DNA from: a virus
Lineage: Duplodnaviria > Heunggongvirae > Uroviricota > Caudoviricetes
Virus record (IMG/VR): IMGVR_UViG_2529293218_000002
Span: 1-5,231 of that record
Strand: one strand, 5' to 3'
Length of the DNA stretch: 5,231 nt
The translations under genes were made by a program, and so were the position numbers. This document shows, in pieces, positions 4,668-5,153 of this stretch; within the stretch, counting starts at the first letter, position 1; each line of letters begins with the position of its first letter. The notes beneath the pieces were generated by a model. The model worked only from the letters and a program-made list of their open reading frames with translations. It was not told where the DNA came from and did not search any database.

Positions 4668-5153
4668 ATGAACTTTGAAGCCTTACCGAAATATTACTCC
4701 CCAAAATCTCCAAAATTGAGCGATGACGCACCGGCGACAGGCTCTGGTGGTTTAACAATTACGGATGTAATGGCTGCGCAGGGGATGGTGCAGTCGAAAG
4801 CACCGCTTGGGTTTGCCTTATTCCTGGCAAAAGTTGGTGTTCAGGATCCTCAGTTTGCGATTGAAGGTCTGCTCAATTACGCGATGGCACTGGATAACCC
4901 GACATTGAACAAATTGAGTGAAGAAACCCGGCTACAGATCATTCCTTACCTTGTGAATTTTGCCTTTGCTGATTATTCCAGGTCTGCGGCAAGTAAGGCT
5001 CGCTGTGAGCATTGTGCTGGTACTGGATTTCATGATGTATTGCGCGAGGTGGTGAAACACTCCAGAAGCGGGGAATCTGTTATCAAGGAAGAGTGGGTGA
5101 AGGAACTGTGTCAGCATTGTCATGGTAAGGGAGAAGTCAGCACAGCGTGCTGA
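4668..5153 (+). CDS. Antitermination protein Q-like (lambda Q family), apparently C-terminally truncated at the inverted-repeat junction
   Basis: ATG with SD ggag (4657..4660). Clear similarity to lambda Q as recalled: KYYSPKSPKLSDDAPATGSGGLTITDVMAAQGM, FAFADYSRSAASKARCEHCAGTG, and a second zinc knuckle CQHCHGKG. The ORF stops 10 residues after the second CxxC, whereas lambda Q (207 aa from memory) continues about 50 aa. The stop codon TGA (5151..5153) is the first three bases of the right inverted-repeat arm. Confidence 0.7.
   Translation: MNFEALPKYYSPKSPKLSDDAPATGSGGLTITDVMAAQGMVQSKAPLGFALFLAKVGVQDPQFAIEGLLNYAMALDNPTLNKLSEETRLQIIPYLVNFAFADYSRSAASKARCEHCAGTGFHDVLREVVKHSRSGESVIKEEWVKELCQHCHGKGEVSTAC

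What the first reader, a model, noticed from the sequence alone, without database searches (positions are those of the whole stretch)
4668..5153. Q-like antiterminator ends 10 residues after its second zinc knuckle, exactly where the inverted repeat starts
The ORF aligns well with lambda Q through both CxxC pairs but then stops at the TGA formed by the first three bases of the right repeat arm. Lambda Q has about 50 further C-terminal residues, which are needed for engaging RNA polymerase. This suggests the antiterminator gene is disrupted at the junction. That would inactivate late-gene expression (a defective prophage) or indicate a chimeric join.
Basis: partly seen in the sequence, partly recalled or inferred. 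Interest (0 to 1): 0.45.

Follow-up and report, generated by a model that had tools for sequence, protein, structure and literature searches.

The report
IS629 insertion truncates prophage Q gene
The late-gene antiterminator (Q) of an E. coli O157:H7 prophage is cut after codon 161 of 250 by a copy of the common insertion sequence IS629, whose first three bases supply the stop codon; this is an ordinary way for O157 prophages to become defective.

Summary
The window is the whole 5,231-bp contig JH697866.1 of a draft assembly. The truncated Q carries an E. coli FRIK1996 annotation.

**The "inverted repeat".** It is not a phage feature. Bases 1-81 and 5151-5231 are the same (right) end of the 1,310-bp element IS629, facing inward from both contig ends. 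So two IS629 copies flank the segment, and the assembler stopped inside each.

**The segment between them.** These 5,069 bp are 100% identical to an intact prophage next to the tRNA-Thr gene beside proA in complete O157:H7 genomes. There Q is 250 aa.

**What Q has lost.**
- The insertion falls after Cys161, and the IS terminal TGA is in frame.
- 89 residues are missing, not about 50.
- Measured against lambda Q, the lost part is the canonical zinc-ribbon arm, the helix-turn-helix that binds the Q-binding element, and the C-terminal helix.
- The product should therefore be inactive (inferred).

**Other points.**
- The left IS629 also removes the first 16 codons of the replication gene.
- The same Q::IS629 junction occurs in two other independent assemblies, so it is real.
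- The junction is absent from 5,426 complete E. coli genomes.
- I could not determine whether the 3' part of Q still lies beyond the IS, or whether the segment is inverted.

Ordinary; low interest.

The parts
4668..5150 (+). 5' fragment of the lambda-type antiterminator Q gene: codons 1-161 of 250.
   Evidence: Pfam Antiterm E 1.2e-21. 100% identical to L001:8590-9072 of the intact 753-nt gene. Aligns with lambda Q 1-151.
5151..5153 (+). In-frame TGA stop codon supplied by the terminal bases of IS629.
   Evidence: The intact allele has AGA (Arg162) here. The window has TGAACCGCC..., the IS629 terminus.
5151..5231 (-). Last 81 nt (right end, IRR side, including the orfB tail) of an IS629 copy on the minus strand. 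The contig ends inside it.
   Evidence: 81/81 identical to the right end of IS629 in phage PA4 (KP682372 24350-25659) and of the IS3-family copy in L003.
1..81 (+). Last 81 nt (right end) of a second IS629 copy on the plus strand. Bases 1-39 encode the last 12 codons and stop of orfB (YYASIGNDDLAA*).
   Evidence: 80/81 identical to the IS629 right end; the single difference is A for C at window position 68. Corresponds to L003:5001-5081, where an IS3-family transposase CDS ends at 5039.
82..975 (+). 5'-truncated replication-initiator (O-like, HTH_36) gene. The first 16 codons are removed by the left IS629, and the remaining ORF starts at the internal ATG at 85 (296 aa against 313 aa).
   Evidence: The intact gene is L001:3956-4897, 313 aa, and the junction falls after codon 16. 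Pfam HTH_36. The 296-aa product is on record only for this contig.
82..5150 (+). 5,069-bp early-region segment bracketed by the two inward-facing IS629 right ends. It carries the genes for the O-like protein, PerC/YfdN, Dam methylase, a LexA-like DNA-binding protein, RusA, a KilA-N protein, a DUF968/HNH protein, and the Q 5' fragment.
   Evidence: 0 mismatches to L001:4004-9072, L005 and L006. Gene content.

Best explanation
A copy of IS629 (1,310 bp, IS3 family) inserted into the Q antiterminator gene of an E. coli O157:H7 lambdoid prophage. In complete genomes that prophage lies next to the tRNA-Thr gene beside proA.

**The insertion.** It lies between nt 483 and 484 of the 753-nt gene, directly after the TGC codon of Cys161. 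The IS lies in the opposite orientation to Q. Its terminal 5'-TGA happens to be in frame, so translation stops immediately and gives a 161-aa fragment.

**What the fragment keeps.** It keeps the N-terminal part: the lambda Q torus-forming region, helices H1-H2, the first CxxC motif, a family-specific beta-hairpin insert and a second CxxC.

**What it lacks.** It lacks the 89 residues that align with lambda Q 118-207. These cover:
- the canonical zinc-ribbon arm, whose tip contacts sigma region 4;
- helices H4-H5, the helix-turn-helix that binds the Q-binding element;
- the NusA-contacting surface;
- the C-terminal helix that contacts the RNA polymerase flap-tip helix.

**Inferred consequence.** Without DNA binding the fragment cannot load onto RNA polymerase paused at the late promoter. 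Late transcripts should then stop at the terminators upstream of the lysis and structural genes, which makes the prophage defective.

**The second IS629 copy.** It sits in inverted orientation 5,069 bp upstream and removes the first 16 codons of the replication-initiator gene. The "inverted repeat" is simply the 81-nt right ends of these two copies. The short-read assembler could not extend through them because IS629 is multicopy.

**Shown and inferred.** Shown: the two junctions, the identity of the arms, the length of the intact allele, and the homology to lambda Q. Inferred: loss of Q function, loss of late expression, and that both arms belong to full-length IS copies.
For: - The window equals contig JH697866.1 of GCA_000267505.2. 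The 161-aa product is annotated in E. coli FRIK1996 and 90.0039.
- The arms are IS629 right ends: 81/81 and 80/81 to the element that PMC4587872 places at 24,350-25,659 of phage PA4. Both arms are right ends, and the two ends of IS629 differ beyond 13 nt. So two copies are needed.
- The 5,069 bp between the arms have 0 mismatches to the intact prophage of O157:H7 ECP19-2498. There Q is 250 aa (WP_001008431.1) and is followed by holin, lysozyme and Rz genes.
- Q is intact at 80% coverage or more in 2,419 complete genomes. It was single-copy in 11 of the 12 best-matching records, 11 of them O157:H7.
- The listed homologues are mostly 250-252 aa, with some at 269 aa and shorter partial or fragment entries. 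All eight Cys of the four CxxCxGx(G/R) motifs are invariant in 24 diverse members.
- Full-length Q residues 1-120 align with lambda Q 1-125, and residues 160-250 align with lambda Q 117-207.
- An AlphaFold model of a 97%-identical full-length homologue (pLDDT 75) matches only lambda Q structures (E 3.7e-12 to 1.5e-07). It places helices 200-210 and 216-248 beyond the break.
- Lambda Q domain roles come from PMC9388147.
- The identical Q::IS629 junction appears in a 74.6-kb contig of GCA_000316405.2 and in an independent Logan assembly of SRR4301568. Three further contigs stop near this point: the one read (L009) ends 2 nt before the junction, and all three encode the same 160-aa partial Q.
- IS629 insertions in O157 prophage genes are well documented.
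Against: - Only 81 nt of each IS copy is present, so full-length copies are assumed.
- Neither junction occurs in any of 5,426 complete E. coli genomes, nor in the viral, GTDB-genome or JGI-metagenome collections. No closed genome therefore shows the whole structure.
- A protein made of the IS629 left-end read-through fused to the Q 3' part was not found by homology search or by exact look-up of seven guesses. The expected far-side junction of a simple insertion is thus unconfirmed. The 3' part could have been deleted, or it may simply not be annotated.
- Loss of function was not measured.
Confidence: 0.95

Rival explanations
1. The two inverted IS629 copies have caused a rearrangement rather than two simple insertions. 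Either the 5-kb segment has been flipped by homologous recombination between the copies, or there is an IS-adjacent deletion. In that case the Q 3' part is not directly beyond the right-hand IS, or is lost altogether. This variant is compatible with the main explanation, because Q is disrupted in every case.
For: - The copies are inverted and only 5,069 bp apart.
- An inversion between them leaves all four junction sequences unchanged, so the contig cannot exclude it (reasoning from the anatomy).
- No protein consisting of the IS left end fused to the Q 3' part was found in the 15-billion-protein collection.
- The IS629 survey of O157:H7 genomes found matching target-site duplications at only 21 of 47 insertion sites (PMC3271280). 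That shows simple insertion footprints are often missing.
Against: - Strain 90.0039 and the SRR4301568 assembly carry the Q::IS629 junction with an intact replication gene upstream. So the Q insertion existed as a single event before the second copy arrived.
- The missing far-side protein is weak evidence, because short 3' remnants without a start codon are rarely annotated.
Confidence: 0.2
2. The junction is an assembly artefact: a chimeric contig in which IS fragments were wrongly attached to phage sequence.
For: The window is a short contig from a 2012-era draft. Both ends lie in a multicopy repeat. One arm carries a single-base difference at a homopolymer boundary (AAAACC against AAACCC), which could be a sequencing error.
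Against: The same Q-IS629 junction, base for base, is present in three assemblies made from different strains and read sets, including an independent re-assembly from raw reads. Three more contigs stop near the site; the one read ends 2 nt before it.
Confidence: 0.02
3. The 161-aa protein is a natural short, functional Q variant.
For: The ORF has a proper start, an Antiterm Pfam hit and four Cys that could bind one zinc.
Against: - Its DNA is identical to the 250-aa allele up to the last base before the IS.
- The stop codon belongs to the IS.
- The listed homologues are mostly 250-252 aa, some 269 aa, and the shorter entries include many marked partial.
- Cys164, Cys187 and Cys190 are invariant in the family and are missing here.
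- The helix-turn-helix region is missing.
Confidence: 0.01

Closest known systems
Lambda Q antiterminator (PDB 4MO1, 7UBJ-7UBN)
   Same: - The intact allele is a sequence and fold homologue. Residues 1-120 align with lambda Q 1-125 and residues 160-250 with lambda Q 117-207.
- Foldseek hits go only to lambda Q structures.
- The gene holds the same position, upstream of the lysis genes.
   Different: - The 250-aa family carries an insert of about 40 residues: a predicted beta-hairpin at 121-147 plus two extra CxxCxGxG motifs. That gives four invariant motifs where lambda Q has two.
- The window copy is only the first 161 residues.
250-aa Q of phage mEp460 and of the complete O157:H7 genomes listed (WP_001008431.1). 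The mEp460 record calls it similar to the Qin-prophage Q.
   Same: The window ORF is the same gene. It is 100% identical in DNA to the O157:H7 allele up to codon 161.
   Different: It is interrupted by IS629 and lacks codons 162-250.
Documented IS629 insertions in O157:H7 prophage genes (stx2::IS629 in FRIK1275; roi, lysozyme and methyltransferase genes in stx2a phages)
   Same: Same element, same host lineage and same kind of event. IS629 is the main driver of within-type prophage diversity, and 62% of copies lie in prophages.
   Different: The target here is Q, plus the replication gene in one strain. I found no paper describing this particular site. It is absent from the 5,426 complete genomes searched.

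Membership tests
Lambda-type Q antiterminator (Pfam PF03589, lambda Q fold) | N-terminal and body region homologous to lambda Q (torus-forming segment, H1-H2). | tested here: met
   PF03589 E 1.2e-21 over residues 24-107. 40% identity to lambda Q 1-151.
Lambda-type Q antiterminator (Pfam PF03589, lambda Q fold) | Complete zinc-binding arm, with all Cys conserved in the family. | tested here: not met
   Eight Cys are invariant in 24 homologues. The window ORF keeps five of them (C113, C116, C148, C151, C161) and loses C164, C187 and C190. The segment aligning with the lambda Q arm (161-195) is absent.
Lambda-type Q antiterminator (Pfam PF03589, lambda Q fold) | C-terminal helix-turn-helix (H4-H5) that binds the Q-binding element, and a C-terminal helix that contacts RNA polymerase. 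| tested here: not met
   The intact allele has these at 200-210 and 216-248, aligned to lambda Q 153-207. The window ORF stops at 161. It is therefore a gene fragment of the family, not a functional member.
Lambda-type Q antiterminator (Pfam PF03589, lambda Q fold) | Position directly upstream of a late promoter, terminator and lysis cassette. | tested here: inconclusive
   This holds in the intact relatives: a promoter-like site about 150 bp after Q, terminator-like hairpins, then holin, lysozyme and Rz genes. In the window the contig ends in the IS, so it cannot be seen.
Lambda-type Q antiterminator (Pfam PF03589, lambda Q fold) | Antitermination activity. | not testable with these tools
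   Needs a reporter or induction assay.
IS629 (IS3 family) - the two arms | Terminal sequence of the element, with TG...CA ends. | tested here: met
   81/81 and 80/81 identity to the right end of IS629 as annotated in phage PA4 and other Stx phages. The terminus reads ...GGTTCA / TGAACC....
IS629 (IS3 family) - the two arms | Full 1,310-bp element with orfA and orfB joined by a programmed frameshift. | not testable with these tools
   Only 81 nt of each copy is in the contig, including the last 12 codons of orfB. Full copies were seen in related genomes.
IS629 (IS3 family) - the two arms | 3-4-bp target-site duplication flanking each copy. | not testable with these tools
   Only one flank of each copy is present. 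Duplications were seen at other copies: TTG in L003 and CTTT in PA4. The 3-4-bp range is reported in PMC3271280.
Composite (compound) transposon | Two IS copies bracketing a segment that moves as a unit, with one duplication outside the pair. | not tested
   The bracketing by inverted copies is seen. The outer flanks are not in the contig, and the segment sits at its native prophage position with 0 mismatches. There is no sign of movement as a unit.

The most novel reading that the evidence does not exclude
The 5.07-kb early-region block bracketed by two inverted IS629 copies behaves as an invertible or compound-transposon-like unit. Alternatively, the stable 161-aa Q fragment, which keeps the torus-forming N-terminus and one four-Cys unit, acts as a dominant-negative modulator of other Q-dependent prophages in the same cell.
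Probability: 0.03. Interest if true: 0.3.

Novelty: already known. Interest (0 to 1): 0.08.

Why it matters
It matters little beyond strain bookkeeping. It documents one more route by which IS629 cripples O157:H7 prophages: here the late-gene switch, and in one strain the replication gene as well. That could serve as a lineage marker for FRIK1996, 90.0039 and their relatives.

The practical lesson concerns draft assemblies. An 81-nt terminal inverted repeat on a short contig can simply be the two ends of multicopy IS elements at the contig edges.

Tried and rejected
- **Exact junction string.** I searched for the 29-nt Q-IS629 junction in the viral, GTDB-genome and JGI-metagenome contig collections. 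There were 0 hits each.
- **Complete E. coli genomes.** Megablast of both junction regions against 5,426 complete genomes found no record that spans either junction.
- **The Q 3' remnant.** I looked for it in two ways:
  - A homology search used a synthetic query of the IS629 left-end read-through plus TGC plus the Q 3' part. It found only a different, independent IS insertion about 14 codons upstream (P0121) and many contig-edge partial proteins.
  - An exact look-up of six guessed remnant proteins found none in the collection.
- **The rest of the FRIK1996 assembly.** It cannot be reached with these tools, so the orientation of the segment and the fate of the late region stay open.
- **Rfam.** A scan of the window found nothing.
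- **Rejected readings.** These were a natural short Q, an assembly chimera, and the two arms being the two ends of one IS copy. The last fails because both arms are right ends, and the left and right ends differ beyond 13 nt.

Full report
**What the window is.** The exact 161-aa product of ORF 4668-5153 is on record on several contigs. One of them, JH697866.1 of NCBI draft assembly GCA_000267505.2, is 5,231 bp long and identical to the window. NCBI annotations of this protein come from E. coli FRIK1996 and E. coli 90.0039. The window is therefore a complete short contig of an O157:H7-type draft genome, and its ends are contig ends.

**Check of the observation.**
- The ORF is there and is a Q antiterminator by Pfam (PF03589, E 1.2e-21).
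- It aligns with lambda Q 1-151 at 40% identity through both CxxC pairs, C113/C116 and C148/C151.
- It ends at Cys161, ten residues after C151.
- The stop codon TGA sits at 5151-5153.
- The repeat finder reports arms 1-82 and 5150-5231, 99% complementary. The outermost g/c pair is a chance extension.

**What the inverted repeat is.** Window bases 1-81 match the last 81 nt of an annotated IS3-family element in related genomes. That stretch includes the last 12 codons and stop of the transposase (YYASIGNDDLAA*).
- The full element is 1,310 bp. It is 98.5% identical to the copies annotated as IS629 in Stx phages.
- Phage PA4 carries one at 24,350-25,659, the position PMC4587872 gives for IS629.
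- The right arm, reverse-complemented, is 81/81 identical to the IS629 right end. The left arm is 80/81, with A for C at window position 68.
- The two ends of IS629 agree only over their first 13 nt.
- The arms are therefore the right ends of two different IS629 copies in inverted orientation, both pointing into the segment. They are not the two ends of one copy and not a phage structure.
- IS629 has about 17-25 copies in O157:H7 genomes. That explains why the assembler stopped 81 nt into each copy.

**What was interrupted.** The 5,069 bp between the arms (82-5150) have no mismatch to the prophage next to the tRNA-Thr gene beside proA in complete O157:H7 genomes such as ECP19-2498.
- There the Q gene is 753 nt, or 250 aa (WP_001008431.1). 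It continues ...STAC-RGCKGKGIVLDEK... after the point where the window switches to TGAACCGCC.
- The insertion therefore lies after codon 161 and removes 89 codons.
- On the left, IS629 sits after codon 16 of the 313-codon O-like replication gene. The 296-aa ORF starting at base 85 begins at an internal Met.

**Relation to lambda Q and what is lost.** HMMER aligns the intact 250-aa protein to lambda Q in two blocks: residues 1-120 with lambda Q 1-125, and residues 160-250 with lambda Q 117-207.
- The family thus has an insert of about 40 residues.
- It has four CxxCxGx(G/R) motifs, at 113, 148, 161 and 187, where lambda Q has two.
- All eight Cys are invariant in 24 homologues from several enterobacterial genera.
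- An AlphaFold model of a 97%-identical full-length homologue (mean pLDDT 75) shows these elements:
  - helices H62-74 and H85-105;
  - a long beta-hairpin at 121-147;
  - short strands and a helix at 156-186;
  - helices 200-210 and 216-248.
- Its only significant PDB matches are lambda Q structures, with E from 3.7e-12 to 1.5e-07.
- According to PMC9388147, lambda Q is organised as follows:
  - residues 1-44 form the torus;
  - residues 61-113 and 153-207 form the four-helix body, whose H4-H5 is the helix-turn-helix that binds the Q-binding element;
  - residues 114-152 form the zinc-ribbon arm, whose tip contacts sigma region 4;
  - residues 182-197 contact NusA;
  - residues 202 and 206 contact the flap-tip helix.
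- Everything aligned to lambda Q 118-207 is missing from the window ORF.
- I infer that the fragment cannot bind its DNA site or load onto RNA polymerase, so it is inactive.
- It is unclear whether the fragment retains one complete zinc site. That would require motifs 1 and 2 to pair, rather than a DnaJ-like nesting of 1 with 4 and 2 with 3. I could not determine this because model coordinates are not returned.

**Expected consequence.** In the intact relatives, Q is followed by a promoter-like site about 150 bp downstream and by terminator-like hairpins. A holin-lysozyme-Rz cassette and a terminase gene come next. In 11 of the 12 best-matching complete genomes (11 of them O157:H7) Q is single-copy, so a resident second copy to complement it is unlikely. 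The prophage should fail to express its late genes. In the FRIK1996 contig the replication gene is damaged too. These are inferences. The late region of this strain is not in the contig.

**Is the junction real?** The identical Q-IS629 junction is present at the end of a 74.6-kb contig of GCA_000316405.2. It is also present in a Logan re-assembly of SRR4301568, and both have an intact replication gene upstream. Three further contigs encode the same Q allele cut at residue 160; the one read (L009) stops 2 nt before the junction. An assembly chimera is therefore very unlikely. The Q insertion predates the second, strain-specific insertion in the replication gene, which is on record only for this contig. 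Neither junction exists in 5,426 complete E. coli genomes or in the three contig collections scanned, so the allele is rare.

**What cannot be resolved.** Two inverted IS629 copies 5 kb apart can flip the segment by homologous recombination. Such an inversion changes none of the four junction sequences, so no short-read contig can tell the orientation. I looked for the far side of the Q insertion, which would be the IS left end, a TGC duplication and then the Q 3' part. A homology search and seven exact look-ups found nothing. This is weak evidence, because the 3' remnant has no start codon of its own. The search did turn up an independent IS insertion of the same kind about 14 codons upstream in another strain (P0121). 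Q has therefore been hit more than once.

**Comparison and novelty.** The intact gene is a member of the lambda-Q family in its 250-aa form. The mEp460 record describes that form as similar to the Qin-prophage Q. The window copy is a gene fragment that fails the family's C-terminal defining features. The event itself, IS629 insertion into an O157:H7 prophage gene, is a well-described source of prophage diversity and decay. Published examples include stx2::IS629 and insertions in roi, lysozyme and methyltransferase genes. Nothing here lies outside known biology, so interest is low.

Noticed in passing
window 1-975: A second IS629 right end at the left contig edge cuts the O-like replication-initiator gene after codon 16 (313 aa reduced to a 296-aa ORF from an internal ATG). 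This truncated product is on record only for this contig.
   Followed up: yes
window 322-444: An array of iteron-like repeats with 15-bp spacing (consensus TCTGACCCGTCAAAA; 4-6 copies, some forming inverted pairs) lies inside the O-like replication gene. This resembles the origin-within-O arrangement of lambda.
   Followed up: partly
window 68: The only difference between the two arms is A instead of the canonical IS629 C (GGAAAACC against GGAAACCC). It sits at a homopolymer boundary near the contig end. It could be a real SNP in that IS copy or a sequencing error.
   Followed up: no
L001:8590-9342 (intact Q); window 5004-5150 for motifs 1-2: The 250-aa Q family has four invariant CxxCxGx(G/R) motifs and a predicted long beta-hairpin (121-147) inserted relative to lambda Q. 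It gives weak hits to DnaJ and anti-TRAP zinc motifs. Whether the two zinc sites are sequential or nested like DnaJ is open.
   Followed up: partly
proteins P0129, P0145, P0183, P0185, P0186, P0188, P0189 (Q homologues in other assemblies): Hundreds of draft E. coli and Salmonella assemblies break contigs inside Q between about codons 147 and 163. This suggests a repeat or mosaic boundary at the duplicated zinc motifs, with a C-terminal half shared between co-resident prophages.
   Followed up: no
proteins P0123, P0148, P0136, P0149, P0150: Predicted fusion proteins join the N-terminal parts of early genes (O-like, DUF968, RusA, KilA-N) directly to the Q C-terminus at a GKG motif. They may be deletions through microhomology or assembly chimeras in short contigs.
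   Followed up: no
proteins P0074 (243 member sequences) and P0117: A frameshifted Q variant diverges after ...IVLDEK, at the GAAAAAAGA run (L001:9103-9111). This suggests a recurrent homopolymer-slip pseudogene of the same Q family.
   Followed up: no
protein P0121 (1,760-nt contig, E. coli): An independent IS insertion of the same kind lies in Q about 14 codons upstream of the window's site. The same left-end read-through peptide (…LQDFRGGS) is fused to LCQHCHGKG....
   Followed up: partly
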